This document shows positions 5,722 to 24,907 of a stretch of 64,000 nt of DNA, piece by piece. This DNA is from a virus. The DNA is taken from UHGV virus genome UHGV-1374671; one strand, 5' to 3'. Each line of letters starts with the position of its first letter. Within the stretch, counting starts at the first letter, position 1. A program made the position numbers and the translations under genes. The notes below the pieces were generated by a model, which saw only the letters and a program-made list of their open reading frames with translations, was not told the origin of the DNA and did not search any database.

Positions 5722-5731
5722 GGTACATACA

Positions 5732-7515: not shown

Positions 7516-7596
7516 GTGTATGCACCGCTGCGCAATAGTAGAGAGTCCCGGCACTGCTTTGGGTATTTATATGTCATATCATGACTGGAGGACATA

Positions 7597-8157: not shown

Positions 8158-8170
8158 ACAGGAGGCCAAT

Positions 8171-10122: not shown

Positions 10123-10142
10123 CCCAATAAAGGAGATCTACA

Positions 10143-10922: not shown

Positions 10923-10938
10923 CAGAAGGAACCCTATA

Positions 10939-11730
10939 ATGAAAACTCTTAAGCTGATCACTTGTCTCCTGTTCACGTTTATCGGATGTGTGGGCTTTGC
11001 GGGCTACACTGAAGATTTCCGGATGGCAGACAGCCCGGAAAATATGCAGGCCGTGCTTACCAGATGGGAAGCAGAGTTGCCGAACATGACGAAGGAGGAA
11101 AAGGTCAAGTTCTCCGGTATGAAGATGCTGTACTACTTCCGCACCACTGAGAACCCGACCTATGCTGCCGGACGCCAGATCTACATGGAGCAGATCAAGA
11201 AGCTCGGTGTGGAAAAAGAGGGCATGGAGAGCTCTTTCCTGCTCGGTCCGGTGCATCCGTGGTGGTGCGCCAAGAAGAACGTTGCGCTGATGGAGGAGGC
11301 TCTTGCGTATGTTGAGACGTTGGACAAGGTCACCGCAACGCAGTGGGCGGAGGCCGGACGCATCCTGGCCTTTGCGCTGGACCGCAGGACGGAGGCCATC
11401 GAATATTTCGAGAGCGCCGGACCGAATGGGTATAAGGAGCTGATCCGCGTGTACAAGGAACTCGGCAATGCGGACAAGGCTGTTGAGACTTATTACAAGG
11501 CCGTTGAATCCGAAGGAATGTCCGCGAAGGATGCCGCAGCACAGTTCCAGGTTATCTGGCCGTTGCAGGTTAAGAGCTTCAAGAACGCGGAAGATCGAGC
11601 TGCTGCCAAGTTCCGGCTGCAGACGCTGGTCGACCAGTACACCAACAAGCTGTACACTGATACCAGTGTGAAACCGGAGAACTCTCCGTGGCGCGCGGCG
11701 CTTACGCTGTGGACGGCCAACGCGAAGTAA
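10939..11730 (+). CDS. secreted or lipoprotein-like helical-repeat protein, paralog B
   Basis: Signal with possible lipobox LFTFIGC. Shared internal motifs and C-terminus SPWRAALTLWTANAK. Confidence 0.7.
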   Translation: MKTLKLITCLLFTFIGCVGFAGYTEDFRMADSPENMQAVLTRWEAELPNMTKEEKVKFSGMKMLYYFRTTENPTYAAGRQIYMEQIKKLGVEKEGMESSFLLGPVHPWWCAKKNVALMEEALAYVETLDKVTATQWAEAGRILAFALDRRTEAIEYFESAGPNGYKELIRVYKELGNADKAVETYYKAVESEGMSAKDAAAQFQVIWPLQVKSFKNAEDRAAAKFRLQTLVDQYTNKLYTDTSVKPENSPWRAALTLWTANAK

Positions 11731-11750
11731 ATCGGTACACAGCTTCTCAT

Positions 11751-11797
11751 AACGGGCTTATTGGTCGGATCACGGTCAGTAAGCCCGTTGTATTGTT
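11751..11797 (+). terminator. terminator-like hairpin
   Basis: aacgggctta and taagcccgtt form a 10-bp stem around a 19-nt loop, followed by gtattgttgtg. Confidence 0.5.
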
Positions 11798-12486: not shown

Positions 12487-12504
12487 TGATAGGAAGTGTT
12501 GATT

Positions 12505-13168: not shown

Positions 13169-16100
13169 ATGGATGATATCAACGTGACGCCTGTTTTGGC
13201 GGACAGCTCCACAGTGGAGAACATTCAGGTTCGCCCGCAGCGTCCTCCCAAAACGGCAGCTGACTGGGTGCGCGACATGCGCATGTCTCCTGAAGTGAAC
13301 AAGACCACTGTCGGTGTGGAGACGGACCGGATAACTCCTGAGTTGCTGATGGCCACGTCGTCCAAGCTGCTTGGTATCTCCAGACGGGAGCAGGATCCGG
13401 ATCCCAAGGATTCCCTGCTCTTCCAGCGCTTCTACGGGCCGGCCGAATACTTTGCAGAACACATTCTGCGGGACGGCAACAAGGTGGCCCGTAACCTGCT
13501 GTGGAAAGCAACCAACAAGGGCAAGATTGACTTCGTACCGTCAGGAGCATTGGATCAGCACGTCAGCGATGTGTTCTACAGCAGCAAGCTGGCCCAGATG
13601 ATCGACGGGTCGTCTCCTTTGGAAACGGTGGACGCTTCCTTCAAGACCACCCGTATCGGCGAGGGCGGCGTCGCAGATGTGCAGTCGGCTCCTGATGAGA
13701 TGCGTACAGTGCAGCCTTCCTACTTCGGATACCTAGACTCCGTGCGCTGCTATTCGGACGATACCGAACTCATGACCAAAAATGGCTGGAAATTCGTTAC
13801 CGATATTACGGAAGACGATGAGCTTGCATGTTATATGGACGGCAGGTTGGAGTACCACAAACCAACCGCATTGAATGTATACGACTACAAGGGCAAGATG
13901 TACGGATACAAAGGTACGCATATCTCGTACCTGGTGACACCGAATCACCGGATGCATTCCAGATGTTATGGAGAACTCAGAGATGGGCGTCCTTGTGGTT
14001 ATAACATTCGTACAGCTGAGAGCATTCACGGTAAGAACAGGGTTGTAGATTCTGCCTGCCATTTGCCGTTACTGTGCAATGAGGATCAGAAATACTTTGA
14101 GCTCCCTGTGGTAGGTCCTAATCTGAAGAAAGAGCAGGTTCATGGCAATCCGCCAATGGGCGCCAGCTTGAAGAACGTGGACAAAGTGGACATCGTGAAG
14201 TTTGCCGAGTTCCTCGGATGGTACCTGGCTGAGGGTTCCTATGTGATCAATGAAACCAAAGGATACTACCGCGTTGATATTGCACAGTCCCCGGAAGTCA
14301 GTGCGGAAAACTACGAGCATATCAGACAGCTGATAGAATCTCTTCCCTTCAACGCAACCAATCCAGGTGCCGAGGAAAAAGCAAAAAGGGGCGGGCATGC
14401 CTTGTCCATCGCCAGAAAACAGCTGACCATATACGTCAGTCAGTTTGGAAAGTGCGAAGACAAGTACATACCTGAGTGGATTTTCTCAGCTCCGTTACAG
14501 GCCCGCAAAGCGTTTTGTTGGGCCCTTCTGCAAGGAGATGGACGGGAACAGAGACATCTCTGCACAAAGTCAAAGCGACTGGCTACTGACTTTGCCCGCC
14601 TGCTTTTTGAATTGGGTGAATCTGCCAAAGTATACCACGAAAAAGAAACCAGATATGAAAACCATCCTGGTATCTGGAATGTTTACTGGCACACCCGCAA
14701 AGAACGTCTTTTGGCTGGAAAAACACATAAGCACAAGGAAGGTGAATATTTCACTGAAGACTATACCGGCAAAGTGTACTGCCCGACCATACCTGGCGGT
14801 CTGGTGTACTGCCGCAGAGGCGAAAAGAGCGTTGGTTTCTGGTGCGGTAATAGTCCGGAGAGGTTACGCGTCGGATTGGATATGTATATGACCAAGAATG
14901 TGGTCAAGGGATCCGATGGAAAGCTGTACCAGAGATTCATCAACGCGCGTACCGGCAAGGAGGAGCTGGTTGACTCCGTAACAGCTTCCAGATCCATTGT
15001 GGCAGCGCCTGAGATGATGGACGCCGATACCAAGTCCATCTTCGCTCTTGGTGGTCGTACTGGCGTACGTATCGTACCCAAGGATAAGGTTGATTATTAT
15101 TTACCCAGAGCCGACGATGCGTACAGCATGTCGTCCAATATGGTGCCCATGTTCAATGGTGTGAAGGAAATGCGCCTGCTGATGGGATGCCTGCATCCGG
15201 GTACTCCGTTGATCACCATATCGGCGAAGAACGAGATCAACATCAAGCCGGCGAAATCCATTGGCAAGAATGCTTATGGAGTGCCTGGCTGCGATGCCAA
15301 AGGCAAGTCGCTGGGGTATCTGATCCGTAACAGCATTGCCAAGTTTCCCCAGAAGCGCAAGTGGTTCAAGAAGGTCGTGCTGATGTCGGGGCGGTCCCTG
15401 ATCACCAGCTACGATCACAGATGGCCAGTGCTGCGGGACGACAAGCTGGAGCTGGTGAACGCATCCGATCTTCAGCCCGGGGACAAGGTGCTCAGATCCA
15501 CGTTCAAGGATCTGCCCAATCGACGCACCTTTTTGCGCGGCGTACTGGTGAACAAGGATGTTGCCACGCTGCTGGGCTGCATCGTAAGGTCGGTCACCAA
15601 ACCTGACCCGGACAAGCTCCGGGTGGTGTACCAGCCTTCTCAGAAGAAGTTCATCGAGGCAGCCATCGAACGGCTCAAACTGGAGAACTCCCGCTTCTAC
15701 GCCAATGCCGGCGAGAAGTGCCTTGCCATTCATGACAGCAACTTCATCCAGTGGGTGGAGAAGGAGATCTGTCTGGAGCCGGAAGAGCGCAAGGTCCCCA
15801 CTGTGATTCTCAGTGCGTGCCTGGACATTGCGTCTCACTTCATCGACGCTTACACGGCCGACACCACCAAGGTCGGCATCGACAGCAACGAGGACATGTG
15901 GATCCTGGATATCCCCAGCATGATCTGCCGTGACGGTCTTGCGTTGCTGCTTGCCAGAATGCAGACGGATACCCTGTACCGGGATGCTGTGCGGGCAGAC
16001 GGAGTCAATCTGGCGTTGAAGCTGGTGGAACAGACCCCCACCTTCGGGGATTCCATTGTGGACGAGGTGAAAATTATACTCGAAGTAGAAAAGGTCCCGC

Positions 16101-19100
16101 TCATGATTGACATCGATATCGATGACAACATGTATGCGACCGCCAATGGAATCATCACACACAACTCCAAGTACCCGTTGCAGGCCATCTCCCTGCTGGA
16201 GCGGGAAGCTCCTTTGGTGAGAGGGCTGGATGAGGCGTCCGGCAGGGACATCCCGTCGTTGGCAGGCAAGTATCTCGGCGCCAGATTCGCCAACCAGGGC
16301 GGCACCGTCACCGCTGTGCGCAAGGACCGCATCGACGTCGTCTACGACGACGGCACCAAGGGCAGCGTTTCCCTGTACCAGAATTTCCCGATGAACGCCA
16401 AGGGGTACATCACCAACACGCCTGTGGTGAAAGCGGGACAGTCCTTCAAGAAGGGAGATGTATTAGCGGCGTCGAACTATACAGACGACAAAGGCGTGGC
16501 GGCCATCGGCAAGAATCTGAGATCCGGCTGGCTGTCCTGGAAGGGCGGCACCTATGAAGACGCTGTTGTAATCTCCGAATCAGCCGCCAAGAAGTTGACC
16601 AGCCGTACCATGTACAAATCGGCAGTCGACCTCGACAAGACAGTCAGTTTGGGAAAGAAGAACTACGTCTCCTGGAAGCCGTCCGAGTACACCAAGGACC
16701 AGCTGTCGGCGCTGGATGACAACGGAATCATTAAGCCGGGTTCCGTGCTTCGCAAAGGAGACCCGATGATTCTGGCGGTGCAGACATCCGAACCCTCTCC
16801 CGGGACGCTTGGCAAGCGCGTGCTGACGGATATCTCCGAGACCTGGGAACACGACCATCCGGGTGTGGTCACTGACGTGGTCAAGACCAGGAAGGGTGTG
16901 AAGGTGTTTGCCATTGTGGAAGCACCTGCGGAAGTGGGGGACAAGGTAAGCGGGAACTTCGGCAACAAGGGAGTAGTCTCGCAGCTTGGTAGAGAGTCCC
17001 AGGAAGAACAGGACGACGAGAACCAGGACTTCCAGATCCAGAAGATCGTACCGGACGCCATGATGCCCATTGGAGAGGACGGCAAGCCTCTGGATCTGCT
17101 GTTCAGTCCTCTTGGGCTTATCTCCCGTACGAACGCTTCCCAGATCCACGAGGCTCTTCTGGGCAAGATCGCCCGTAAGACTGGAAAACCGTTCGTCATG
17201 CCGGCCTTCTACAAGGGCGACCTTACGGAGTTCGTGGAGAACCAGCTGAAACAGAACAAGGTCAGCGACACGGAAGACCTGACGGATCCTTATACCGGCA
17301 GGAAGATCCCCAAAGTGCTGACCGGTGTGTCGTACATCTACAAGCTCAAGCACCAGGCCGAGTCCAAGCTGTCCGCACGCGGTACTGCCGAGTACACTGC
17401 CGAGGGCACGCCGGGTGGTTCTGGACTCACTGGGAGCAAAAGGTACGGAACTTTGGAGCAGTCCGCGATGGTCGGCCACGGTGCGTTTGACAACCTGCTT
17501 GATGCGAAACTCCTGCGTGGCCAGTCGAACTCGGATTTCTGGCGCAGCATCCGTACTGGAGAGATCCCGACGATTCCTGGAGAGCCCCTGGTGCACAAGA
17601 AGTTCTTCGCCCACCTTACAGGCTCCGGTGTGAACGTGCGCAAAACCCCGAAGGGCATCAGCGTGTTCTCGTTGTCCAACGACGATGTGAAAGAACTTGC
17701 CGGCCCCCGTGAGCTGAAATCCAAGGACACCTACGAAGCCAAGACATTCCGTCCCATCGATGGAGGACTCTTTGGTCAGGACCTGTTCGGCCCCAATGGA
17801 GACCGCTGGGCATACATCCAGCTGGACGAACCTCTGCCGAACCCTGTAATGGAGGAGCCTCTGGCGCGTCTTCTCAGAATGTCCACCAAGGACTTCATGG
17901 CAGTGGCCGCCGGCAAGGCTGAAGTGAATGGAATGAAATCCTCCGCCGACATCAAGGAACGCCTGTCCAGGATCAACTTGAAGGCCGAGGAACAGCAGGC
18001 CAAGCAGGAGTTCAAGGACGCCCCGATGTCTAAGAAGGACGCGGCGCTGAAGCGTTATCGGGACATCGCCCGCATGGCTGCGAATGAAGTGTCCCCTGAC
18101 CAGTACATGCTGGATAGGATTCCGGTGCTGCCTCCTGTCTTCCGTCCTGTCAGTACGCACAACGGACTGACCATGGTGGCCGACAGCAACTACCTGTATG
18201 CGCAGATGCTGGACGCCAGAGACGACGCCCGGGAAGCCCGCAACCTGCCCAAGGAATACCAGCAGCAGGCCAGGGAAAACCTGTACCGAAGCTGGAAGGA
18301 GCTGACCGGCATGTACGAGCCCGAGAACGTGAAGCTGAAGAACAAGCACGTGCGGGGGCTTCTGAAGTGGGCGCTTGGTGACAGTCCAAAATGGTCCGCG
18401 TTTCAGAGAAAGGTATTGGGCTCCACGGTGGACACGGTAGGCCGTGGTGTTATCACTCCGGATCCGCGCCTGAAGCTGAACCAGCTCGGCGTTCCTCTGC
18501 CGATGGCGTTGGGCATCTATGAGCCGTTCGTTGCTCGATCCATGGTCAAGCAGGGGTACTCTCCTGTGGAAGCCATGAAGATGATCAAGGTCCAGGACAA
18601 GCGCGTGATACCAGTGCTGCTTAACGTGATGAAGAACAGCCCTGTGCAGCTGAATCGGGCACCTTCGCTCCACAAGCTGAACATCATGGGATTCGAGCCT
18701 GTGCTCACTGCCGGGCACGCTGTCCGGGTAAACCCGTCCATTGTGGTGCCCTTTGCGGCGGACTTCGACGGCAACTGCTGCGATTTTGATAGTGTAATTT
18801 TCCTAAAATTATCAAAATCTGCGCTTGAAAAAACTGCTTTTATGTGCTATGTTGATCATAGTAACAAACCCGAACAAAACAAGGAGGTTTCTATGATCAC
18901 GGAAGACACAAGAGTCGTGGTGTTCAACCCGGATGAGACTGACCCGGATACTGTGTACTGCTCTATGAAGATCGGGGAGTTCCCGCGTAAGGGGGTGCCG
19001 GTGAAAGACCGGAACGGTGCTTTGGTGTACCCGGTTCCAGAAGGGGTAAGCGTACTGTCCTGCGACCCAGTTACAGGTGCTCCGAAGTTCTGCCCTGTGT

Positions 19101-20542
19101 CGGCTGTAACAGTGGAGGAGAACTGCCATACGGTAGAGTTGACTCTCGGCAGCAGAAAGATCATCGTGTCGGATAACGAATCCCTGGCCGCGTTCGACAG
19201 CAAGGCAGGTACGTTGATCAAAGTGTCCCCGGCAGAGATCGGAGATCGGATGATTCCTGTTCTGAAAAAGCAGCAGCTGCCATATGGCCCGTTCGGCACC
19301 AGGGACCTCGGCTGGATGTTCGGTGCGTTCATCTCCGATGGCTGGGTCACGCACAATATGGTGGGATACGCCAAAGTGGAAGCCAACAAGCGTGCTGAGT
19401 TCGTCAGGATCATGCGTGCGTATCACGAGAACTTTACTTGCAACGAATACACTGATCGTCCGCAGGCTGGAAAGAACAAGTTGGGCGCCTCCGTTAAGTT
19501 GCACCTGTGCAGCAAATCCCTGGCAGACTGGATGCGCAACTGGCAGCTCATAAACGAGGACTGTCCTGCGGCAGAGCGTGCTGCGCTGCGGAAGCAGATA
19601 AACAGCAAGATGATTCAGTACGGCTCCGAGGACTTCCTGTGGGGGCTGTTCTCCGGTCTCCTGGACGGTGACGGGTCCATCAGCAAAAACACGACGATGG
19701 AGAAGCCGCGCTTTACAGCCAGATTCAGCACCTCCAGCAAACAGCTGGCGGACGACATCTGCGCACTGTGTTATCGACTGGGTCTGCGTTACTCCATGAC
19801 CGTGGTACCTCCCAGAGGATTCTCCAATACGGCATACATCATCATCCCGTCCACTATTGACTTGCATGCCAAGCTGGACAAGCTCACCTGTATTGGTGAG
19901 CGGGAGATTCAGCTTATCTCGGAATGGAAGCAGCAGCCGTCGTACAAAGACACCAAAGACATGATCCCGCTGTCTGTTAAAGAAGCGGAAGTGCTGATTA
20001 AGCTGGCGAACGCCAGGAAAGACGTAGGAGTGTCCTCCGGGATCTACAAGACTAGAAAGAAGTCCTGTATCTACGGTGGTCGTGTTGGGCTGATGCGTTA
20101 CTGCGAGGAAATCAAGGAGATGTTCCCTGAGTTATACGCCCGTATTAAAAACGAGGACACCATTTGGCAGACTGTCACTTCCGTGGAGGACGCCGGCAAT
20201 CGCCAGGTGTTCGACTTGATGGTTGAGGGTACGAAAGTGTTTGCCATCAACAACGGCGTGATTATCTGGGACACCGCCAACGTGCACGTACCGGTATCCG
20301 ACAACGCCAGACGGGAGACCTATGAGAAGATGTTCCCGGAACGCAATCTGATCTCCATGCGTGAGCGCAAGGTGCTGTACAAGCCCGAAAAGGAGTACAT
20401 GCAGGGGATCTACGTGGCGACCCGCATGAAGAAGGGCAAGGATGTCCGACCGAAGATCTTCGGATCTGTGGAAGAAGCGCGTCAAGCGTTACGCAAGGGC
20501 ATTATTGATATTGATGATCCTATTGAAATACGCAAGCAATAA
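13169..20542 (+). CDS. RNA polymerase beta (C-terminal half) fused to beta-prime N-terminal half; precursor carrying two inteins
   Basis: GDKVSGNFGNKGVVSQ...PLDLLFSPLG matches beta GDKMAGRHGNKGVIS...NPLGVPSRMN. NRAPSLHKLNIMGFEPVL...AADFDG...NVHVP matches beta-prime NRAPTLHRLGIQAFEPVL...NADFDGDQMAVHVP. Ends after an IYVATRM segment that aligns with E. coli LYYMTR. Confidence 0.8.
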   Translation: MDDINVTPVLADSSTVENIQVRPQRPPKTAADWVRDMRMSPEVNKTTVGVETDRITPELLMATSSKLLGISRREQDPDPKDSLLFQRFYGPAEYFAEHILRDGNKVARNLLWKATNKGKIDFVPSGALDQHVSDVFYSSKLAQMIDGSSPLETVDASFKTTRIGEGGVADVQSAPDEMRTVQPSYFGYLDSVRCYSDDTELMTKNGWKFVTDITEDDELACYMDGRLEYHKPTALNVYDYKGKMYGYKGTHISYLVTPNHRMHSRCYGELRDGRPCGYNIRTAESIHGKNRVVDSACHLPLLCNEDQKYFELPVVGPNLKKEQVHGNPPMGASLKNVDKVDIVKFAEFLGWYLAEGSYVINETKGYYRVDIAQSPEVSAENYEHIRQLIESLPFNATNPGAEEKAKRGGHALSIARKQLTIYVSQFGKCEDKYIPEWIFSAPLQARKAFCWALLQGDGREQRHLCTKSKRLATDFARLLFELGESAKVYHEKETRYENHPGIWNVYWHTRKERLLAGKTHKHKEGEYFTEDYTGKVYCPTIPGGLVYCRRGEKSVGFWCGNSPERLRVGLDMYMTKNVVKGSDGKLYQRFINARTGKEELVDSVTASRSIVAAPEMMDADTKSIFALGGRTGVRIVPKDKVDYYLPRADDAYSMSSNMVPMFNGVKEMRLLMGCLHPGTPLITISAKNEINIKPAKSIGKNAYGVPGCDAKGKSLGYLIRNSIAKFPQKRKWFKKVVLMSGRSLITSYDHRWPVLRDDKLELVNASDLQPGDKVLRSTFKDLPNRRTFLRGVLVNKDVATLLGCIVRSVTKPDPDKLRVVYQPSQKKFIEAAIERLKLENSRFYANAGEKCLAIHDSNFIQWVEKEICLEPEERKVPTVILSACLDIASHFIDAYTADTTKVGIDSNEDMWILDIPSMICRDGLALLLARMQTDTLYRDAVRADGVNLALKLVEQTPTFGDSIVDEVKIILEVEKVPLMIDIDIDDNMYATANGIITHNSKYPLQAISLLEREAPLVRGLDEASGRDIPSLAGKYLGARFANQGGTVTAVRKDRIDVVYDDGTKGSVSLYQNFPMNAKGYITNTPVVKAGQSFKKGDVLAASNYTDDKGVAAIGKNLRSGWLSWKGGTYEDAVVISESAAKKLTSRTMYKSAVDLDKTVSLGKKNYVSWKPSEYTKDQLSALDDNGIIKPGSVLRKGDPMILAVQTSEPSPGTLGKRVLTDISETWEHDHPGVVTDVVKTRKGVKVFAIVEAPAEVGDKVSGNFGNKGVVSQLGRESQEEQDDENQDFQIQKIVPDAMMPIGEDGKPLDLLFSPLGLISRTNASQIHEALLGKIARKTGKPFVMPAFYKGDLTEFVENQLKQNKVSDTEDLTDPYTGRKIPKVLTGVSYIYKLKHQAESKLSARGTAEYTAEGTPGGSGLTGSKRYGTLEQSAMVGHGAFDNLLDAKLLRGQSNSDFWRSIRTGEIPTIPGEPLVHKKFFAHLTGSGVNVRKTPKGISVFSLSNDDVKELAGPRELKSKDTYEAKTFRPIDGGLFGQDLFGPNGDRWAYIQLDEPLPNPVMEEPLARLLRMSTKDFMAVAAGKAEVNGMKSSADIKERLSRINLKAEEQQAKQEFKDAPMSKKDAALKRYRDIARMAANEVSPDQYMLDRIPVLPPVFRPVSTHNGLTMVADSNYLYAQMLDARDDAREARNLPKEYQQQARENLYRSWKELTGMYEPENVKLKNKHVRGLLKWALGDSPKWSAFQRKVLGSTVDTVGRGVITPDPRLKLNQLGVPLPMALGIYEPFVARSMVKQGYSPVEAMKMIKVQDKRVIPVLLNVMKNSPVQLNRAPSLHKLNIMGFEPVLTAGHAVRVNPSIVVPFAADFDGNCCDFDSVIFLKLSKSALEKTAFMCYVDHSNKPEQNKEVSMITEDTRVVVFNPDETDPDTVYCSMKIGEFPRKGVPVKDRNGALVYPVPEGVSVLSCDPVTGAPKFCPVSAVTVEENCHTVELTLGSRKIIVSDNESLAAFDSKAGTLIKVSPAEIGDRMIPVLKKQQLPYGPFGTRDLGWMFGAFISDGWVTHNMVGYAKVEANKRAEFVRIMRAYHENFTCNEYTDRPQAGKNKLGASVKLHLCSKSLADWMRNWQLINEDCPAAERAALRKQINSKMIQYGSEDFLWGLFSGLLDGDGSISKNTTMEKPRFTARFSTSSKQLADDICALCYRLGLRYSMTVVPPRGFSNTAYIIIPSTIDLHAKLDKLTCIGEREIQLISEWKQQPSYKDTKDMIPLSVKEAEVLIKLANARKDVGVSSGIYKTRKKSCIYGGRVGLMRYCEEIKEMFPELYARIKNEDTIWQTVTSVEDAGNRQVFDLMVEGTKVFAINNGVIIWDTANVHVPVSDNARRETYEKMFPERNLISMRERKVLYKPEKEYMQGIYVATRMKKGKDVRPKIFGSVEEARQALRKGIIDIDDPIEIRKQ
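13748..16165 (+). mobile_element. intein 1 (806 aa) with LAGLIDADG homing endonuclease, inserted in the beta subunit
   Basis: Starts CYSDDTELM (block A) with TPNH (block B). LAGLIDADG blocks LGWYLAEGS and WALLQGDGRE. Ends NGIITHN before +1 Ser. Confidence 0.8.
16073..16092 (+). promoter_or_regulatory. dyad motif copy 1 (AATTATACTCGAAGTAGAAAA), followed by palindrome CATCGATATCGATG
   Basis: Sequence match to the motif family; sits in frame inside intein 1 (KIILEVEK). Confidence 0.45.
18784..18817 (+). repeat. AT-rich interrupted palindrome (ttttgata-gtg-taatttt-cct-aaaatta-tcaaaa)
   Basis: 8-bp and 7-bp paired arms; local GC about 30% versus about 58% genome-wide. Confidence 0.6.
18825..18853 (+). 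promoter_or_regulatory. sigma70-like promoter TTGAAA-N17-TATGTT embedded in frame in the intein 2 coding sequence
   Basis: Exact -35 TTGAAA (18825-18830), 17-nt spacer, -10 TATGTT (18848-18853). Followed by SD AAGGAGG (18881-18887) and in-frame ATG 18893. Confidence 0.5.
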
Positions 20543-20562
20543 CCCGAAGTGAGGCACAGCAT

Positions 20563-20751
20563 ATGCAGAGTATGAGACATCTCTACGGACTCGACAAACA
20601 GGCGGCTCAGAAGAAACAGGCCTTCGCCAAGAAGCTCGCCGACTTCATGCGTCACCAGCGCATGGAGGCGCAGCAGAAAGCCGCTGCTGCCGTCGAACGC
20701 GGTAAGAACAACGTCCTGGCCATGATCCGTCAGGCCTGCAACAGCAAATAA
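20563..20751 (+). CDS. small basic protein (62 aa) sharing N-terminal RHLYGL motif with the next gene
   Basis: MQSMRHLYGLDKQAAQ compared with MSEKYRHLYGLGKAAV; RBS gaggca. Confidence 0.5.
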   Translation: MQSMRHLYGLDKQAAQKKQAFAKKLADFMRHQRMEAQQKAAAAVERGKNNVLAMIRQACNSK

Positions 20752-20762
20752 GGAGCGCGGCA

Positions 20763-21746
20763 ATGAGTGAGAAATACAGACATCTCTACGGACTGGGTAA
20801 AGCGGCTGTGGCTGTACTTACTCCGGAAGCAGAGCAAGCGGCTGTTCAGCCTCCGATGGACCCTGCCATGGCTGGCGGCGCTCCTCCGATGGATCCGATG
20901 GCGGCCGGAGGAATGCCTCCGCAGGGCGGCGCTGGAGCTCCTCCGATGGGTGGCGCTCCGATGCCGCCGCCGGCAGGCGGACAGATCCCGCCGGAAATCC
21001 TCCAGGACCAGATGTTCATCCAGTTTCTGCAGGAGGCGCTGGGGGTGTCCCTTGATCCGGCGTCGGGCATGTTCATGGGCCCGAATGGCGAACAGATCCC
21101 GCCCCAGCTTATCATTGAGGCCTACCAGGAGTTCCAGACGATGCAGGCCCAGGGCGGCATGCCGCCTGCAGGAGCTGGGGCTCCGCCTGCGGCAGGCATG
21201 GATCCGGCTATGGCAGCAGGTGGTGCTCCGATGCCGGCAGGAGCCCCGCCGATGGATCCCATGGCTGCGGGAATGCCTCCGGAAGCGGCTGGTGGAGTTC
21301 CTCCGGAAATGGGAGGAACCCCTGAAGAAGTGCCTCCGGAAATGGGCGCTGCACCTGAAGCAGGTGCTCCTGCGCCGGCTGCTGGACCGGAAGCGATGAT
21401 GCAGGAACTGCTGTCTGGAGTAGAGGCCGTGCTGCAGTCCTTCTCCGGAAAGCTGGACAAGCAGCTCAGTGCCATCCAGGACAAGATCGAGGCTCTGAAG
21501 ATGGATGTCGAATCACTGCGGGACACCACGGACCAGCGCACCAAGATGGAAGAGGACGAGGCTGCCCGTATCCGGGAAGAGCTGGAAGCAGAGCTTGTGC
21601 CCACCGCCGTTGCCCAGAAGGAGGCCAGCATTTCCATTCCGGCTCCGCAGCCGATCAAGATGCCGACCGTTGAGAACAAGCCGAGCACCAGGAAGCGTAC
21701 CGGCACTCCGAACCTGTTCTCCGTGATCCAGGGAGGAAAACGATGA
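20763..21746 (+). CDS. Pro/Ala/Gly/Met-rich repeat protein with C-terminal coiled coil
   Basis: Two copies of the module [PAGM-rich]-(Q)IPP(E/Q)(I)L...QEF; RBS aaggag. Confidence 0.65.
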   Translation: MSEKYRHLYGLGKAAVAVLTPEAEQAAVQPPMDPAMAGGAPPMDPMAAGGMPPQGGAGAPPMGGAPMPPPAGGQIPPEILQDQMFIQFLQEALGVSLDPASGMFMGPNGEQIPPQLIIEAYQEFQTMQAQGGMPPAGAGAPPAAGMDPAMAAGGAPMPAGAPPMDPMAAGMPPEAAGGVPPEMGGTPEEVPPEMGAAPEAGAPAPAAGPEAMMQELLSGVEAVLQSFSGKLDKQLSAIQDKIEALKMDVESLRDTTDQRTKMEEDEAARIREELEAELVPTAVAQKEASISIPAPQPIKMPTVENKPSTRKRTGTPNLFSVIQGGKR

Positions 21747-22585
21747 ACTATATCGAAGTACAGAAGATGCGGAAAGAAGCCGCATCGGAATCCAGTCTTG
21801 ACAAGTTCTTGATGAATCACGAGACTCTCGGCAAGCCCTACATGGAAAAAATGTCACCGCAGGAAATGCTGTATCACGGCGTAGGGGCCGTGGGCGGTGG
21901 AGCCCTCGGTTACATGCTGTCTCGTATGATCCATCGTAAGCCCAGCGGCATGCTGCGCGCCCTGTATACGCTGGGAGGCGCGGCTGCCGGTGGTGTTGCC
22001 CCGTACTATCTGCTGCGGGCCAAGAAGGATGAACAGGGGCTGACGGAAGCGGATCGCATGCGCCTCCAGGACGCTTGGGCGCATGCGCCCAAGGCACTGC
22101 AGGAAGCGCGCAATCAGGCAGAGGGACTGAAGCCCAATGGTGAGGAGCTGCCCAACGAGAAACCTATTCAGACCCGTATCGCGGATGCTATTCCCGGCAA
22201 TATATGGTGGTACGGCGGTGCTGGTGCGGCCATCGATGCCGGCAGATTCGCAAAAGAGCGTCTTAACATTTTTGAGCAGAACCGGAAGCTCCAGCCGAAC
22301 GAAGTGAAAGTAACGGTTAAGCCTCCCAAAGGCAAACCTACGACCACCACTACAACCGAGACTGCTGCCGAGAAACCGTATCCGCGTTTCTTCCCCACAA
22401 AGGAAGAGTTCAAGAAGACACCTGTGGCCGCTACCAACTACACGTTGTTTAAGCGCCTCAGAGGTACACTTGGCGGCGTCACGTTAGGTACGGTACTGGC
22501 GCTTCTCCGCAGCAAGGCAGGAGACAATCAAGTTCTTGACCCGCTGTCCAAGGAGAACTTGGACCAAGCGCTGCAGAACAAGTAA
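21743..22585 (+). CDS. hypothetical protein with Gly-rich hydrophobic segments
   Basis: ATGA overlap with upstream gene; GVGAVGGGALGYMLS and GGAAAGGVAPYYLL. Confidence 0.6.
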   Translation: MNYIEVQKMRKEAASESSLDKFLMNHETLGKPYMEKMSPQEMLYHGVGAVGGGALGYMLSRMIHRKPSGMLRALYTLGGAAAGGVAPYYLLRAKKDEQGLTEADRMRLQDAWAHAPKALQEARNQAEGLKPNGEELPNEKPIQTRIADAIPGNIWWYGGAGAAIDAGRFAKERLNIFEQNRKLQPNEVKVTVKPPKGKPTTTTTTETAAEKPYPRFFPTKEEFKKTPVAATNYTLFKRLRGTLGGVTLGTVLALLRSKAGDNQVLDPLSKENLDQALQNK

Positions 22586-22600
22586 GCAGAAACAGGGATT

Positions 22601-24907
22601 GTGACCATGTTGACGACACTGGGCAGAGAACTGATTCGGGCAAAGCTCCCCGAGAAGTACAAGGGGTACGCGGATCAGGTTCTGGACAAGAAAACACTGA
22701 CCAATCTGATGACCGAGATCGCCAGAGAGGATCCGGAAGGGTACATCGACGTTCTGCAGGATCTCAACAACATTGGACAGGAAGTCGTGTCCACATACGG
22801 ACGGGACACCTCGCTCTCGTATGCAGACCTGAAAGTCGACAATGAGATCAAAGCCCTGAACAAGCGCCTGCGGCAGGTCATCAAGGGAGTCCTCAATGAC
22901 GATTCCCTTACCAGCGAGCAGAAGGAAGAGAAGATCAAGGAACTGGGATACAAGTACACGCAGAAGGTGCAGGACGCGGTATTCCAGGACAACGACAAGC
23001 GAGGAACGTCGCTGGCCTCCCAGATCAACTCAGGCTCTCGTGGAAATAAAACCCAGTTGATGCAGCTCCAGTTCGGCAACATGCTGATGAAAGATGCACT
23101 CAACCGGGACATTCCTTATCTGATGATAGACCCGTTCGTCCATGGTGCGTCACCGATGTCGTACTGGGTGTCCGCGTCCAGTGGGCGCAAGGGGTTCTTC
23201 GATGTGCAGGCCGCCACCGGACAGGCCGGATATCTGGGCAAGCAGGTGACAGCCGCCACACACAGAACCACCATTGAGAAAGAGGACTGCGGCACCACCG
23301 ACACCGGAGTGCCGTTTCCTGCCAACAGCACGAAGAACGTGGGCGCGGTTCTGCTGCGCCCCTTCCACAAATACCCGGCAGGCACGGTTGTCACTGAGAA
23401 GATGGTTGCCGAGGCCGATGACGACGAGGAGATGATTCTGCGCAGTCCAACCACCTGCAAGTGCAAGGACGGCATCTGCGCCAAGTGCAATGGGCTGGGA
23501 GAGAATGGGAAGTTTCCGGCAGTGGGCGAGTATGTGCCGCTGAATGCTGCGCGTTCTTTTGTTGAGCCGGTTACGCAAGGAGGGATCTCGTGTCTGCATC
23601 CTGGAACACAGGTACGTATGGCAGACTGGTCTATCAAAGCACTGCGTGATATCAGGGTAGGCGATCGCGTTATGGGCGTTCACACCGATGGTTCTTATGA
23701 ACCCGCCCTCGTCACCCGGACGTTCGATAATGGCATTGTTCCGATGTACTTGACAAAGTTCCGTAAGGGCACTGATAAGATTGCCGTGCTGATGTCCACC
23801 ACATGTCACAAAATGCTCTTATCTGTCGACGGGGATGCTCCTGCCATTCTTCCTGTAGGTACAGATGGCCAGCTCAGCGCGTGTCAGACTATCGGACCTG
23901 CAGGGTATACTGATAAGCAGATTAAGATGTCACACTTCAAACGCATCTCTCAGGAATATATCGGAGACATGCAATCGCTGGATATTGAGATCGACAACGA
24001 CTCCCATCTGTTTCTGTTGGCCAATGGCCTGGTGGTTTCCAATTCCAAACATGGCGCGGGTATTGGAGGCAAGCGATGGGTCGATCCCGAGGGGCCTGAC
24101 CAGCCGCACGGGTTCCGTGCCCTTGAGCGTCTGTTCATGGCTCCCAGCAACTTCCCGGGCGGAGCCGTACTTGCCCCGCAGGACGGCACGGTAAGCAACA
24201 TTCAGAAGGCCTCCCAGGGCGGCCATTACATCACGGTGGGCAACAAGACGCTGTACTGCTCTCCAGATCGCACTATGAAAGTCAAAGTCGGGGACAAGGT
24301 GTCCGCCGGCGACGTACTTACCAATGGTGTGCCCAATCCTGCCGAGGTGATGGATCTCAAAGGACTGGGAGAGGGCCGGCATTACTTCGTCAACAAATTG
24401 AACGAAACCTTGAAGGCACAGGGCTGGGCAACAGACCGCAGAAATATCGAGGCGTTTACACGCAGCATGATTAGTAAGGTCAAAATCACCGACCCTGACG
24501 GATACAAGTCGTATCTGCCTGGTGATATTGCCGATTACAACGAGATCATGGCTGACTGGGAGCCCAGGGAAGGATCCGTCACAGTGAAAGCGGATCAGGC
24601 GCTGAACAAGTACCTGGAGAAACCGACCCTGTACTTCAGCGTCGGCACCAGGATCACCCCGTCAGTTGTGCAGCAGTTGAAGAAATACAAGTTTGATACT
24701 GTGACGGTGTCGGATAAGGAGCCTCCTTTCAAAGCTCAGTTCCTGCGTCCTGCTGTTGTGCTGCAGAACGACAAGAACTGGTTGCCCAGGCTGGCGGGAG
24801 AGCGGCTGCAGCCAGCACTGTTTGATGCAGCGCAGAAGGGCATCACCGACGAGTACGACTCGCCGAGTTACGTTGACAAAATCGTGGCGGCGCCATTTAA
24901 ACCATAA
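22601..24907 (+). CDS. RNA polymerase beta-prime C-terminal half; precursor carrying a mini-intein
   Basis: N-terminus continues the beta-prime alignment (GRELIRAKLPEKY...YADQVL compared with E. coli GRAILWMIVPKGLPY...FADQIM). AARSFVEPVTQGGIS|intein|SKHGAGIGG compared with [23 protein letters not shown]. Confidence 0.8.
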   Translation: MTMLTTLGRELIRAKLPEKYKGYADQVLDKKTLTNLMTEIAREDPEGYIDVLQDLNNIGQEVVSTYGRDTSLSYADLKVDNEIKALNKRLRQVIKGVLNDDSLTSEQKEEKIKELGYKYTQKVQDAVFQDNDKRGTSLASQINSGSRGNKTQLMQLQFGNMLMKDALNRDIPYLMIDPFVHGASPMSYWVSASSGRKGFFDVQAATGQAGYLGKQVTAATHRTTIEKEDCGTTDTGVPFPANSTKNVGAVLLRPFHKYPAGTVVTEKMVAEADDDEEMILRSPTTCKCKDGICAKCNGLGENGKFPAVGEYVPLNAARSFVEPVTQGGISCLHPGTQVRMADWSIKALRDIRVGDRVMGVHTDGSYEPALVTRTFDNGIVPMYLTKFRKGTDKIAVLMSTTCHKMLLSVDGDAPAILPVGTDGQLSACQTIGPAGYTDKQIKMSHFKRISQEYIGDMQSLDIEIDNDSHLFLLANGLVVSNSKHGAGIGGKRWVDPEGPDQPHGFRALERLFMAPSNFPGGAVLAPQDGTVSNIQKASQGGHYITVGNKTLYCSPDRTMKVKVGDKVSAGDVLTNGVPNPAEVMDLKGLGEGRHYFVNKLNETLKAQGWATDRRNIEAFTRSMISKVKITDPDGYKSYLPGDIADYNEIMADWEPREGSVTVKADQALNKYLEKPTLYFSVGTRITPSVVQQLKKYKFDTVTVSDKEPPFKAQFLRPAVVLQNDKNWLPRLAGERLQPALFDAAQKGITDEYDSPSYVDKIVAAPFKP
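23591..24043 (+). mobile_element. intein 3 (151-aa mini-intein) in the beta-prime trigger-loop region
   Basis: CLHPGTQVRMADWSIKALRDIRVGDRVMG (block A), TTCH (block B), ends NGLVVSN before +1 Ser. Confidence 0.8.

What the first reader, a model, noticed from the sequence alone, without database searches (positions are those of the whole stretch)
13169..24907. Phage multisubunit RNA polymerase split as betaC-beta'N fusion plus separate beta'C, carrying three inteins
One 2457-aa reading frame contains both the beta signature and the beta-prime N-terminal signature. The beta signature is GDKVSGNFGNKGVVS ... LFSPLGLISRTN. The beta-prime signature is NRAPSLHKLNIMGFEPVL ... ADFDG ... NVHVP ... IYVATRM. 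The rest of beta-prime resumes in a separate gene, 22601..24907, three small genes downstream. Beta appears to contribute only its C-terminal half, so the N-terminal half is probably elsewhere, as in phiKZ-type split polymerases. Two LAGLIDADG inteins and one mini-intein interrupt the most conserved parts of the enzyme. A beta-beta' junction fusion combined with a beta' split and this intein load is an unusual architecture.
Basis: partly seen in the sequence, partly recalled or inferred. Interest (0 to 1): 0.75.

Follow-up and report, generated by a model that had tools for sequence, protein, structure and literature searches.

The report
Fused, split, intein-riddled phage RNA polymerase
A 176-kb human-gut phage encodes its own bacterial-type RNA polymerase as three pieces, with the end of beta fused to the start of beta-prime and four self-splicing inteins; one intein cuts the catalytic metal-binding motif and lacks the usual splicing residues.

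Summary
ORF 13169..20542 (2457 aa) carries the C-terminal ~85% of RNAP beta fused in frame to the N-terminal half of beta-prime. ORF 22601/22607..24907 carries the rest of beta-prime.

There are four inteins, not three: three in the fusion gene and one in beta-prime-C. Close or distant homologs lacking each intein fix every boundary.

The missing beta N-terminus (230 aa) lies on the same 176-kb scaffold, about 15.2 kb upstream and just outside the window.

The architecture is not unique and not phiKZ-like. It is one state of a very large phage family, probably the 'mReC' lineage, which includes cultured Salmonella phage Arash. In all 67 loci where both halves were seen, beta is fused to beta-prime. 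The polyprotein is then left whole or cut at various points. 110 of 121 homolog clusters carry large intein-sized inserts.

A sigma-factor ortholog lies at 57936..58742. Arash proteomics suggest the enzyme is virion-packaged.

The surprising part is intein 3, inside DFDG|D. In 87 of 91 divergent representatives, residue -1 is Asn instead of the catalytic Asp. The intein ends in Trp/Tyr-Asp and has Glu where the block B His should be. Canonical splicing would yield an inactive-looking DFDGN.

The parts
13169..20542 (+). Precursor gene for the beta-C::beta-prime-N fusion subunit. It is 2457 aa, or 1264 aa after removal of three inteins. Beta exteins: aa 1-193, 562-673 and 1000 to about 1491. Beta-prime exteins: aa about 1497-1869 and 2369-2457.
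   Evidence: ORF; translation; Pfam Rpb2_6 and Rpb1_2. PDB phmmer: beta 478-1157 then beta-prime 33-563. More than 400 homologs share the architecture. The same 2457-aa product is called on two assemblies.
13748..14851 (+). Intein 1: 368 aa, C...GN|S, block B TPNH, with a weak LAGLIDADG match. It sits in the beta fork motif GYLDSVR|SPERLRVG.
   Evidence: P0001 (88% identical exteins) reads GYLDPVR|SAERKRVG with no insert. 23 of 121 homolog clusters have an insert in the 193-198 region. LAGLIDADG_3 E 2e-4.
15188..16165 (+). Intein 2: 326 aa, C...THN|S, block B SYDH, with an unrecognised central domain. It sits in the beta motif RLLMG|SKYPLQA (equivalent to RALMGANMQRQA).
   Evidence: It is absent in P0116, P0104, P0118, P0069 and P0071. 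It is present in 92 of 121 clusters; 147-157-aa mini versions occur at the same site. Intein_splicing E 4e-5.
17639..17659 (+). In-frame junction between the beta C-terminus and the beta-prime N-terminus (...GVNVRKTPKGISVFSLSNDD...).
   Evidence: In one search the beta alignment ends at spliced residue 797 and the beta-prime alignment begins at 803. There is no stop codon and no frame change.
18776..20272 (+). Intein 3: 499 aa, a Hint domain plus a LAGLIDADG endonuclease, inserted in the catalytic Mg-binding motif. Flanks read DFDG-N|CCDFDS ... VIIWD|TANVHVP. It is non-canonical in four ways: Asn at -1, Glu at the block B His position, penultimate Trp, and C-terminal Asp.
   Evidence: The empty allele P0001 reads ADFDGDTANVHAP. 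Flanks. Pfam LAGLIDADG_3 7e-9 and Intein_splicing 9e-7. AF2 model pLDDT 79.6. Foldseek best matches are TliVMA intein, PI-PfuI and PI-SceI, E 1e-18 to 1e-12. Family-wide: 87 of 91 N junctions are N|C and all 74 scored C junctions end in Asp before Thr/Ser, 71 of them preceded by Tyr, Trp or Phe.
20563..22585 (+). Three intervening genes. g62 is 20563-20751. g327 is 20763-21746 and is a Pro/Gly/Met-rich low-complexity protein with PPMDP repeats. g280 is 21743-22585 and looks like a Gly-zipper membrane protein. None resembles an RNAP subunit.
   Evidence: No Pfam or PHROG hit. A g327 homolog occupies the same position in 20 loci and g280 in fewer. Composition. No terminator-like site on the + strand between 20542 and 22601.
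22601..24907 (+). Precursor gene for beta-prime-C. It is 768 aa from GTG 22601; the likely true start is ATG 22607. It is 615-617 aa after splicing.
   Evidence: Pfam Rpb1_5. PDB alignment to bacterial beta-prime from about residue 660 of 8k60_D, where beta-prime-N ended at 628. Homologs start MLTTLGRE.
23591..24043 (+). Intein 4: a 151-aa mini-intein, C...VSN|S, block B TTCH, in the trigger-loop motif TQGGIS|SKHGAG.
   Evidence: Intein-less homologs L004 and Arash gp216 read TQGGLS|SKHSGG and TQMILG|TKHDAK (alignment A1). Hom_end_hint E 1e-5.
57936..58742 (+). Candidate sigma70-family initiation factor for this polymerase (268 aa).
   Evidence: Sigma70_r3 24.8 bits and Sigma70_r4 23.5 bits, in the correct order, both just under the Pfam cut-offs. 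PHROG 351 'RNA polymerase sigma factor' E 6e-9. 26% identity, E 9e-18, to Arash gp10 sigma factor.
24922..27120 (+). Conserved 732-aa gene immediately downstream of beta-prime-C. It is probably a virion protein and its link to the polymerase is uncertain.
   Evidence: Homologs follow beta-prime-C in 51 loci. There is a weak direct match to Arash gp218 'structural protein'. No Pfam or PHROG hit.

Best explanation
This is the catalytic core of a phage-encoded, bacterial-type multisubunit RNA polymerase. It belongs to a large family in which beta and beta-prime are ancestrally fused head to tail.

In this phage the polyprotein is cut into three genes:
- beta-N, 230 aa, 15.2 kb upstream and outside the window;
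- beta-C::beta-prime-N, 1264 aa after splicing;
- beta-prime-C, about 615 aa after splicing.

Four inteins interrupt active-site motifs: the fork, the RALMG-type motif, the DFDGD Mg loop and the trigger loop. They must excise themselves post-translationally before the pieces can fold into an active enzyme.

Inferred steps:
- The covalent beta-beta-prime link helps assembly in the absence of recognisable alpha and omega subunits.
- The neighbouring sigma70-like protein provides promoter recognition.
- By analogy with phage Arash, the enzyme is packaged in the virion and injected to transcribe early genes.

Shown: gene structure, homology, intein boundaries, family-wide conservation, the location of beta-N, and the sigma ortholog. 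Inferred: actual splicing (especially of intein 3), assembly, virion packaging and promoter use.
For: - Domain content and collinear alignment to bacterial beta and beta-prime.
- Each intein is missing at exactly the predicted junction in homologs.
- Inteins 1, 2 and 4 have Cys1, a block B (T/S)xxH motif, a terminal Asn and +1 Ser.
- Intein 3 has a predicted Hint plus LAGLIDADG fold.
- In all 67 loci where both halves were seen, beta-C and beta-prime-N share one ORF. The breakdown is 23 (+3 truncated) single-ORF fusions, 25 beta::beta-prime-N plus beta-prime-C, 11 of the window type and 5 with a further split.
- Beta-N was found at L132:6976-7668, E 1e-133, and L132 is 100% identical to the window over 15.7 kb.
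- Standalone beta-N genes lie 2.4-5.7 kb upstream of the fusion gene in sister clades. 170 beta-N clusters were found.
- In Arash, gp206 (the fusion, 1525 aa) and gp216 (beta-prime-C) are among the most abundant virion proteins, and sigma gp10 is also in virions.
- A sigma ortholog is present in the window.
- The genes sit among tail and baseplate genes.
Against: - No experiment on this phage exists and its host is unknown.
- Intein 3 lacks the block B His, the penultimate His and the terminal Asn. By the canonical mechanism it would leave DFDGN, without the third catalytic Asp, so an active enzyme is not guaranteed.
- No alpha- or omega-like subunit was detected. Most neighbouring genes have no detectable homology, so additional subunits cannot be excluded.
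- Virion packaging is extrapolated from a relative with only about 30% identity.
- Only about 84 kb of the 176-kb genome was examined, so a second polymerase gene set is not excluded.
- Assignment to the published mReC clade was not tested by phylogeny.
Confidence: 0.78

Rival explanations
1. The beta/beta-prime fusion is an assembly or sequencing artefact, for example a lost stop codon or frameshift between separate rpoB-like and rpoC-like genes.
For: Single-contig metagenome assemblies do contain frameshifts. One related locus (L079) shows overlapping ORFs suggestive of one.
Against: The identical 2457-residue product is called on an ENA scaffold and a Logan contig. 417 or more homolog clusters from many samples contain both Rpb2_6 and Rpb1_2. 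All 67 informative loci keep the junction in one ORF. Cultured phage Arash has the same fusion, gp206, with 100% peptide coverage.
Confidence: 0.02
2. It is a phiKZ/AR9-type split jumbo-phage RNA polymerase: several beta and beta-prime fragments, no sigma, and separate virion and non-virion sets.
For: Beta and beta-prime are both split. The beta-prime split lies just after the catalytic double-psi beta-barrel, as in phiKZ enzymes and cyanobacteria (PMC7598289). A virion-packaged enzyme is likely.
Against: Beta and beta-prime are covalently fused here. Similarity to bacterial RNAP is high (E 1e-47) and no phage chain is among the 60 best PDB matches. A sigma70-like factor is encoded nearby. No PHROG match links the neighbours to phiKZ-like core genes. 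The genome is 176 kb.
Confidence: 0.05
3. The polymerase encoded by alleles carrying intein 3 is catalytically dead or strongly attenuated. Either the intein cannot splice, or it leaves DFDGN. The genes would then persist as a virion structural component, or through selfish endonuclease homing, while transcription relies on host RNAP or on another phage copy.
For: Intein 3 lacks three hallmark splicing residues and carries Asn at -1. No intein-free allele has DFDGN: 42 of 42 unique empty alleles among the loci, and all empty ones, read DFDGD. The sigma factor could in principle redirect host RNAP.
Against: The same unusual residues are conserved in 87 of 91 representatives that are as little as 30% identical, all in intact ORFs of 1900-3100 aa. 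That is the signature of purifying selection on a working element. The exteins of intein-bearing alleles are as conserved as those of empty alleles (88% identity to P0001). The other three inteins in the same enzyme are canonical, which would be pointless if the product were dead.
Confidence: 0.12
4. The insertions are not protein inteins but self-splicing RNA introns carrying in-frame homing-endonuclease ORFs, removed from the mRNA.
For: Phage genes, including the RNAP genes of AR9-like phages, often contain group I introns with endonuclease ORFs. Intein 3 has atypical protein-splicing residues.
Against: No Rfam family, including group I and II introns, reaches threshold anywhere in the window. 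All four inserts are in frame with conserved Hint blocks at both ends. The +1 residue is always a nucleophile in occupied alleles but variable in empty ones. Intein 3 has a predicted Hint fold with adjacent termini.
Confidence: 0.03

Closest known systems
Multisubunit-RNAP-encoding Caudovirales ('mReC'; Weinheimer & Aylward 2020, PMC7481178)
   Same: Both are metagenomic tailed phages, some from host-associated samples, with contigs up to about 200 kb. Their beta and beta-prime are still recognisable with the cellular COG0085/COG0086 profiles, and the genes sit among structural genes.
   Different: The paper treats beta and beta-prime as two subunits. It does not mention fusion of them, internal splits, inteins or sigma. 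Membership of this window in their clade is my inference and was not tested by phylogeny.
Salmonella phage Arash gp206 and gp216 (OQ632216; PMC10585845)
   Same: The closest cultured relatives found are Arash and three Vibrio phages (D69, D181, D148), all about 30-31% identical over the fusion; only Arash was examined further. Arash has one ORF with beta fused to beta-prime-N (1525 aa) plus a separate beta-prime-C (606 aa) and a sigma factor (gp10) orthologous to window ORF 57936-58742. The genome size is similar (181 kb).
   Different: Arash beta is complete within the fusion, with no separate beta-N. There are no inteins. The genes are annotated simply as 'subunit beta', without noting the fusion. 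The genes between the two subunits differ.
phiKZ/AR9-type virion and non-virion RNAPs of jumbo phages (PMC7598289, PMC7824862)
   Same: Both are phage-encoded two-barrel RNAPs made of fragments of beta and beta-prime. The beta-prime split lies just after the catalytic barrel. No alpha or omega homologs are found. One enzyme is packaged in virions.
   Different: phiKZ-type enzymes have no beta::beta-prime fusion. They are extremely divergent from bacterial RNAP, lack sigma-like factors and come in two paralogous sets.
Cyanobacterial and plastid split beta-prime (rpoC1/gamma plus rpoC2) and natural rpoB-rpoC fusions of Helicobacter and Wolbachia (own knowledge)
   Same: They show that beta-prime tolerates a split after the catalytic barrel, and that a covalent beta-to-beta-prime link is compatible with function.
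   Different: The phage split is about 65 residues N-terminal of the cyanobacterial one: the fusion ends opposite residue 559 of the 626-aa gamma subunit. No cellular enzyme combines the fusion with splits in both subunits.
Inteins in RNAP large subunits of archaea, eukaryotes and giant viruses (Mja rPol A' and A'', RPB2, RPA2, RPC2; PMC1635734)
   Same: These are LAGLIDADG-containing or mini inteins inserted at the most conserved, active-site-proximal motifs. Gly-Asn termini like that of intein 1 are known.
   Different: In this family 110 of 121 homolog clusters carry at least one intein-sized insert, spread over at least seven insertion regions in one protein. I found no paper in the searched library describing an intein inside NADFDGD.
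Atypical inteins: C-terminal Asp or Gln inteins (Chy RIR1, CIV RIR1), the Tko CDC21-1 intein lacking the block B His, and class 2/3 inteins (own knowledge, not checked here)
   Same: They give precedent that single canonical residues (terminal Asn, block B His, Cys1) can be replaced while splicing is retained.
   Different: Intein 3 combines three such replacements (Glu for the block B His, Trp/Tyr for the penultimate His, Asp for the terminal Asn). It also has an obligatory Asn at -1 where the host enzyme needs Asp.

Membership tests
Bacterial-type multisubunit RNAP catalytic core (beta plus beta-prime) | Beta hybrid-binding domain (Rpb2_6) with the GDKxxxxxGNKG motif | tested here: met
   Pfam Rpb2_6 E 8e-44 on the spliced protein. 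GDKVSGNFGNKG at aa 1257. Alignment to bacterial beta 478-1157.
Bacterial-type multisubunit RNAP catalytic core (beta plus beta-prime) | Beta-prime catalytic barrel with the NADFDGD Mg-binding triad | tested here: inconclusive
   Rpb1_2 E 7e-26 when the insert is removed between DFDG and DTANVH. The gene itself reads DFDG-N|intein|...D|T. A canonical splice gives DFDGN, not DFDGD.
Bacterial-type multisubunit RNAP catalytic core (beta plus beta-prime) | Beta-prime C-terminal module (Rpb1_5, trigger loop) | tested here: met
   Rpb1_5 E 2e-17. Alignment to beta-prime residues about 660-1167.
Bacterial-type multisubunit RNAP catalytic core (beta plus beta-prime) | Beta N-terminal (protrusion) module present | tested here: met
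   It is not in the window. It is on the same scaffold at L132:6976-7668, E 1e-133, and is 75% identical to the sister-clade beta-N.
Bacterial-type multisubunit RNAP catalytic core (beta plus beta-prime) | Alpha dimer and omega assembly subunits | tested here: not met
   No Pfam or PHROG hit to RpoA or RpoZ among the window ORFs scanned. Remote homologs cannot be excluded.
Class 1 intein (inteins 1, 2 and 4) | Cys/Ser at position 1, block B (T/S)xxH, C-terminal Asn, +1 Ser/Thr/Cys, and precise absence in homologs | tested here: met
   Intein 1: C...TPNH...GN|S. Intein 2: C...SYDH...HN|S. Intein 4: C...TTCH...SN|S. Empty alleles: P0001, P0116, L004 and Arash.
Class 1 intein (intein 3) | Hint fold with an inserted LAGLIDADG endonuclease | tested here: met
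   AF2 model pTM 0.83. Foldseek: 7qss E 1e-18, 1dq3 E 4e-17, PI-SceI. Pfam LAGLIDADG_3 7e-9.
Class 1 intein (intein 3) | Cys1 and a +1 nucleophile | tested here: met
   N|C in 87 of 91 junctions. In all 74 scored C junctions the residue after the final Asp is Thr (72) or Ser (2). In empty alleles that position is T, A, Q, S or N.
Class 1 intein (intein 3) | Block B His, penultimate His and C-terminal Asn | tested here: not met
   Block B reads S-x-N-E-S, with Glu in 26 of 30 matched sequences. The terminus is [W/Y/F]-D in 71 of 74.
Class 1 intein (intein 3) | Splicing restores the native host sequence | tested here: not met
   The canonical junctions give DFDGN-T, whereas every empty allele has DFDGD. 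Actual splicing is not testable with these tools.
phiKZ/AR9-type jumbo-phage RNAP | Beta and beta-prime fragments encoded as separate polypeptides with no beta::beta-prime fusion, and no sigma-like factor | tested here: not met
   The fusion is shown. The sigma-like ORF is shown.
phiKZ/AR9-type jumbo-phage RNAP | Beta-prime split directly after the catalytic double-psi beta-barrel | tested here: met
   The fusion ends about 90 aa after DFDG(D), and beta-prime-C resumes about 30 residues later in bacterial numbering (PMC7598289).
phiKZ/AR9-type jumbo-phage RNAP | Two paralogous sets (virion and non-virion) | not tested
   Only about 84 of 176 kb were readable (window plus L132 and L134). One set was seen, and Arash has a single match.
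mReC lineage (Weinheimer & Aylward 2020) | Monophyletic placement in a concatenated beta/beta-prime tree, together with related capsid and terminase genes | not tested
   No phylogeny was run, and capsid and terminase genes are not in the window. The assignment rests on the description in PMC7481178.

The most novel reading that the evidence does not exclude
The intein family splitting the DFDG|D motif is a new mechanistic class of protein-splicing element. Its features are N|C at the start, Glu at the block B His position, and [W/Y]-D|T at the end; 148 representative clusters match at E <= 1e-30.

There are two versions of this reading:
- It excises along non-canonical junctions, G|N...W|D. 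This is the only DNA-level parse that leaves both exteins unmutated.
- It couples splicing to conversion of the -1 Asn into the catalytic Asp, for example through a succinimide, so that the polymerase is made as a chemically masked pro-enzyme.
Probability: 0.25. Interest if true: 0.85.

Novelty: new variant of a known kind. Interest (0 to 1): 0.62.

Why it matters
Three points make this worth following up.

1. **RNAP evolution and assembly.** A very large group of uncultured phages, with a few cultured ones, builds a bacterial-type RNA polymerase from a beta::beta-prime polyprotein. Evolution has cut that polyprotein at different places in different lineages. This is a natural experiment on which connections in the RNAP core are dispensable. 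It also bears on how a core can assemble without recognisable alpha and omega subunits. Published descriptions that I could search treat the genes as ordinary 'beta' and 'beta-prime'.

2. **Intein density.** About 90% of the family's homolog clusters carry intein-sized inserts, spread over at least seven insertion regions. This makes it one of the densest intein hosts known and a rich source of orthogonal splicing domains.

3. **The intein in the Mg-binding loop.** It is conserved with residues that current splicing chemistry cannot reconcile with an active polymerase. Resolving this would reveal one of three things: new protein-splicing chemistry, a tolerated Asp-to-Asn change in a universally conserved catalytic triad, or a post-translational activation switch for a virion enzyme.

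Tried and rejected
- Megablast of the region against GenBank phages found no match.
- I searched the window for the beta N-terminal module in three ways: tblastn with distant and close beta-N sequences, and three HMMs against all six frames. All were negative. It was found only after extending beyond the window edge.
- I considered the three intervening genes, the 732-aa downstream gene and the upstream 209-aa gene as missing RNAP subunits. I rejected this. They have no Pfam or PHROG hits. g327 is a low-complexity PPMDP-repeat protein. g280 and g209 are Gly-zipper-like paralogs.
- Rfam and tRNA scans of the whole window found nothing, so there is no support for RNA introns.
- The promoter and terminator scan of 11.5-28.5 kb showed no enrichment over shuffles.
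- The PDB sequence search with the sigma candidate was only marginal (E 0.19). Comparison with Arash gp10 and PHROG 351 was decisive instead.
- Literature searches for a beta/beta-prime fusion or inteins in this phage group, and for an intein in NADFDGD, found nothing relevant. The PaBG paper was irrelevant.
- I tried to find a second beta-prime-N copy per contig by scanning IMG/VR. The scan saturated at more than 600 stretches and could not answer the question.
- I considered that Asp at -1 is simply incompatible with Cys1 at this site. This is weakened by L081 and L083, which read DFDGD|C in another intein family.

Full report
**Source and context**

The window is 100% identical to part of a 176,044-bp scaffold from a human-gut metagenome. 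The scaffold is ENA ERZ28572640, BENG15-1_SAMEA2784449 scaffold_126. A second assembly of 175,990 bp (ERZ918879) and a Logan contig from run ERR636350 carry the same sequence.

Nearly all genes are on the + strand, and GC is about 55%. Recognisable genes include:
- a 1798-aa Laminin_G_3 tail-fibre-like protein;
- an RCC1-repeat protein;
- a ferritin-like protein;
- a baseplate-J/wedge protein.

Most other ORFs match nothing in Pfam or PHROGs. This is a large, poorly characterised tailed phage. No GenBank phage is similar at the DNA level.

**Check of the observation**

ORF 13169..20542 encodes 2457 aa.

Pfam finds Rpb2_6 (beta) and Rpb1_2 (beta-prime) in this single ORF. It finds Rpb1_5 in ORF 22601..24907. 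Three ORFs of 62, 327 and 280 aa lie between them.

After in-silico removal of the inserts, the 1264-aa product aligns collinearly with bacterial beta residues 478-1157. Six residues later it aligns with beta-prime residues 33-563 (E 4e-47 and 4e-48). None of the 60 best PDB matches is a phage enzyme.

The second gene aligns with beta-prime from about residue 660 of chain 8k60_D. The first gene ended at residue 628 of the same chain. Nothing substantial of beta-prime is therefore missing between them.

The split lies about 90 residues after DFDG(D), just behind the catalytic barrel. That is about 65 residues N-terminal of the cyanobacterial gamma/beta-prime split. A review states that phiKZ-type enzymes and cyanobacteria share a post-barrel split (PMC7598289).

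**The inteins**

There are four inteins in the polymerase genes, not three.

| Intein | Residues | Window nt | Termini | Host motif |
|---|---|---|---|---|
| 1 | aa 194-561 of the fusion ORF | 13748-14851 | C...GN\|S | fork, DSVR\|SPER |
| 2 | aa 674-999 of the fusion ORF | 15188-16165 | C...HN\|S | RLLMG\|SKYPLQ |
| 3 | aa 1870-2368 of the fusion ORF | 18776-20272 | N\|C...WD\|T | DFDG(D)\|T |
| 4 | aa 331-481 of the beta-prime-C ORF | 23591-24043 | C...SN\|S | trigger loop, TQGGIS\|SKHGAG |

Every boundary is fixed by homologs that lack the insert:
- P0001 (88% identical exteins) lacks inteins 1 and 3.
- P0116, P0104, P0069 and others lack intein 2.
- L004 and Arash gp216 lack intein 4.

Inteins 1, 2 and 4 have a block B (T/S)xxH motif and canonical ends.

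Across the 121 closest homolog clusters, large inserts occupy at least seven regions, and 110 clusters have at least one. Counts by position in spliced coordinates:

| Position | Clusters with an insert |
|---|---|
| 305 | 92 |
| DFDG site | 38 |
| 715-728 | 31 |
| 193-198 | 23 |
| 626 | 16 |
| 565-594 | 6 |
| 1047 | 1 |

Inteins in RNAP large subunits are known from archaea, eukaryotes and giant viruses, and they likewise sit at active-site-proximal motifs (PMC1635734).

**The family and its architectures**

The fusion is a family trait. A protein search returned 417 proteins at E <= 1e-10, ranging from 1266 to 2210 aa. An IMG/VR scan with a beta-prime-N profile saturated at more than 600 stretches, of which 550 were confirmed relatives.

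In 88 fetched loci I mapped beta-N, beta-C, beta-prime-N and beta-prime-C onto ORFs:

| Architecture | Loci |
|---|---|
| Whole beta::beta-prime in one ORF of about 2000-2100 aa | 23 (+3 truncated) |
| Complete beta fused to beta-prime-N, plus a separate beta-prime-C | 25 |
| Window type: beta-C::beta-prime-N without beta-N | 11 |
| Cut about 90 residues into beta-prime | 5 |

In none of the 67 informative loci are beta and beta-prime separated at the canonical junction.

The closest cultured relatives found are Salmonella phage Arash (181 kb) and three Vibrio phages, all about 30-31% identical. In Arash, gp206 (1525 aa, annotated only as 'subunit beta') is the fusion and gp216 is beta-prime-C.

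In the Arash virion proteome, gp206 is the most abundant protein by spectral count and gp216 is fifth. A sigma factor, gp10, is also present (PMC10585845).

The group matches the description of the 'mReC' lineage (PMC7481178). That paper does not mention fusion, splits, inteins or sigma. I did not run the phylogeny that would prove membership.

**The missing beta N-terminus**

Longer relatives begin with about 230-250 residues homologous to the bacterial beta N-terminus. Many relatives encode this part as a standalone protein of about 240 aa. 170 such clusters were found, and several sit on contigs whose lengths match those that carry the fusion gene.

In sister clades the beta-N gene lies 2.4-5.7 kb upstream of the fusion gene.

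The window itself contains no such sequence. Extending 10 kb beyond the left edge of the window on the same scaffold revealed it at L132:6976-7668. It is 230 aa, E 1e-133, and 75% identical to the sister-clade protein. It lies 15.2 kb upstream of the fusion gene.

The enzyme of this phage is therefore made of three pieces.

**Accessory genes**

- The three intervening ORFs are not recognisable polymerase parts. g327 is a Pro/Gly/Met-rich repeat protein conserved in this position in 20 loci. g280 is a Gly-zipper-like paralog of the upstream g209.
- The 732-aa gene after beta-prime-C is conserved in 51 loci. It weakly matches Arash gp218, a virion protein.
- ORF 57936..58742 is a sigma70-family candidate. 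Sigma70_r3 and r4 both score just below the Pfam cut-offs and occur in the right order. PHROG 351 'sigma factor' scores E 6e-9. It is 26% identical to Arash gp10, E 9e-18.
- No alpha- or omega-like protein was detected.

**Intein 3, the unresolved part**

Empty alleles read ADFDGD-T/A/Q/S/N.... The window reads GGC AAC | TGC TGC ... TGG GAC | ACC, that is DFDG-N|C C D F D S ... I I W D|T A N V H.

The +1 residue is Thr, or rarely Ser, in all occupied alleles but is variable in empty ones. This marks it as the nucleophile and fixes the C-terminal junction after Asp. The conserved block A Cys fixes the N-terminal junction after Asn.

Hence -1 is Asn instead of the third catalytic Asp. The intein ends in Trp-Asp instead of His-Asn. 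Block B reads S-x-N-E-S, with Glu where His is expected.

An exhaustive HMMER search with this intein found 579 representative clusters, 148 of them at E <= 1e-30. Almost all lie in RNAP-sized proteins of about 1900-3100 aa. Among them:
- the N junction is DFDG-N|C in 87 of 91; the exceptions are three D-S-C and one E-C;
- the C junction is [Y/W/F]-D|[T/S] in 71 of 74;
- the block B position is Glu in 26 of 30.

The predicted structure (pLDDT 79.6, pTM 0.83) is a Hint domain with a LAGLIDADG endonuclease. Its best matches are the TliVMA intein, PI-PfuI and PI-SceI. No RNA intron family is detected.

Two other, unrelated intein families use the same site:
- One starts D|C, D|S or D|T and ends VVQD|T/S.
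- The other starts D|A, D|E or D|Q and ends ILSN|T.

Both keep DFDGD intact.

By the canonical mechanism, intein 3 would yield DFDGN-T. At the DNA level, the only parse that leaves both exteins unmutated places the element between the Gly and Asp codons: [AAC TGC...TGG]. No known splicing chemistry cleaves there.

The possibilities, all inferred, are:
- an Asn at this position is tolerated;
- the Asn is converted to Asp during or after splicing, for example through a succinimide with the Cys1 backbone nitrogen followed by acyl transfers;
- a genuinely new junction chemistry operates;
- these alleles encode an attenuated enzyme.

The strict conservation across sequences only about 30% identical argues for a working, selected mechanism.

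**Mechanism proposed**

Three precursors are translated. No + strand terminator-like site separates the fusion gene from beta-prime-C, which is weak evidence. The four inteins then excise.

Beta-N, beta-C::beta-prime-N and beta-prime-C assemble into a two-barrel core. The covalent beta-beta-prime tether helps this assembly. The sigma-like protein directs initiation.

By analogy with Arash, and given the location among structural genes, the enzyme is probably packaged and injected to start transcription independently of the host.

Gene structure, homology and family conservation are shown. Splicing, assembly, packaging and promoter use are inferred.

**Verdict**

The finding is real. Its core interpretation is right, but its comparison (phiKZ-like), intein count and claim of rarity need correction.

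The architecture is a new, undescribed variant within a known kind: phage multisubunit RNAPs, probably mReC. The conserved non-canonical intein in the catalytic triad is the element most likely to repay experiments.

Noticed in passing
window 30130-30573 (within ORF 29917..31797, +): A fifth intein lies in the window, outside the polymerase genes. It is a 148-aa mini-intein, YGANAN|CFIGETP...PFVVHN|CDGWNGE, in a 626-aa protein of unknown function. The homolog in L001 is 911 aa and also has Hint hits.
   Followed up: partly
window 20563-20751 and 20763-21746: The 62-aa and 327-aa proteins share an N-terminal motif, (M/Y)RHLYGL(D/G)K(Q/A)A. The 327-aa protein then consists of PPMDP/GGAPP low-complexity repeats followed by a coiled-coil-like tail. 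The shared leader might be a virion-targeting or processing signal.
   Followed up: partly
window 11857-12486 and 21743-22585; also L132:7699-9906: g209 and g280 are paralogs with Gly-zipper, membrane-like segments. Two further Gly-zipper proteins lie just after the beta-N gene, left of the window. Such proteins therefore flank the polymerase genes.
   Followed up: partly
window 12496-13122 (+): A ferritin-like (Dps/ferritin fold) gene sits immediately upstream of the polymerase fusion gene (Pfam Ferritin E 5e-25). It is conserved there in the closest relatives (L001-L003) but not in sister clades.
   Followed up: no
window about 17700-17800 (spliced residues about 840-870): The beta-prime N-terminal zinc-binding segment of bacterial enzymes seems to be missing. 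The sequence runs ...GGLFGQDLFGPNGDRWAYIQLDEPLPNPVM, without the CxC...CxxC ribbon between 'FGP' and the next conserved block. The acidic pair of the beta motif before RALMG is also absent (NGVKEMRLLMG).
   Followed up: no
window 11749-11791 (+): A strong hairpin (19-bp stem, 8 GC pairs) lies between ORF 10939..11730 and g209. It is the only convincing terminator-like structure near the polymerase genes, and it may mark the start of the transcription unit containing them.
   Followed up: no
loci L081, L083, L064, L059, L065, L046; protein P0110: At least three unrelated intein families occupy the same DFDGD|T site in different relatives. One family ends in VVQ-D, again a C-terminal Asp. Another begins with a non-nucleophilic Ala, Glu or Gln and ends in SN, which is class 2/3-like.
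   Followed up: partly
locus L079 (IMGVR_UViG_3300020193_000004), 5328-11767: In this relative the polyprotein is spread over two overlapping ORFs (5328-8561 and 7886-11767). This suggests a frameshift, either a sequencing error or programmed, within an otherwise single-ORF beta::beta-prime gene.
   Followed up: no
window 325-7078 (+): A 1798-aa protein has three Laminin_G_3 domains and tail-fibre PHROG matches. It is followed by a 448-aa RCC1-repeat (beta-propeller) protein. Together they look like a host-recognition module, and it is 66-92% identical in L001.
   Followed up: no
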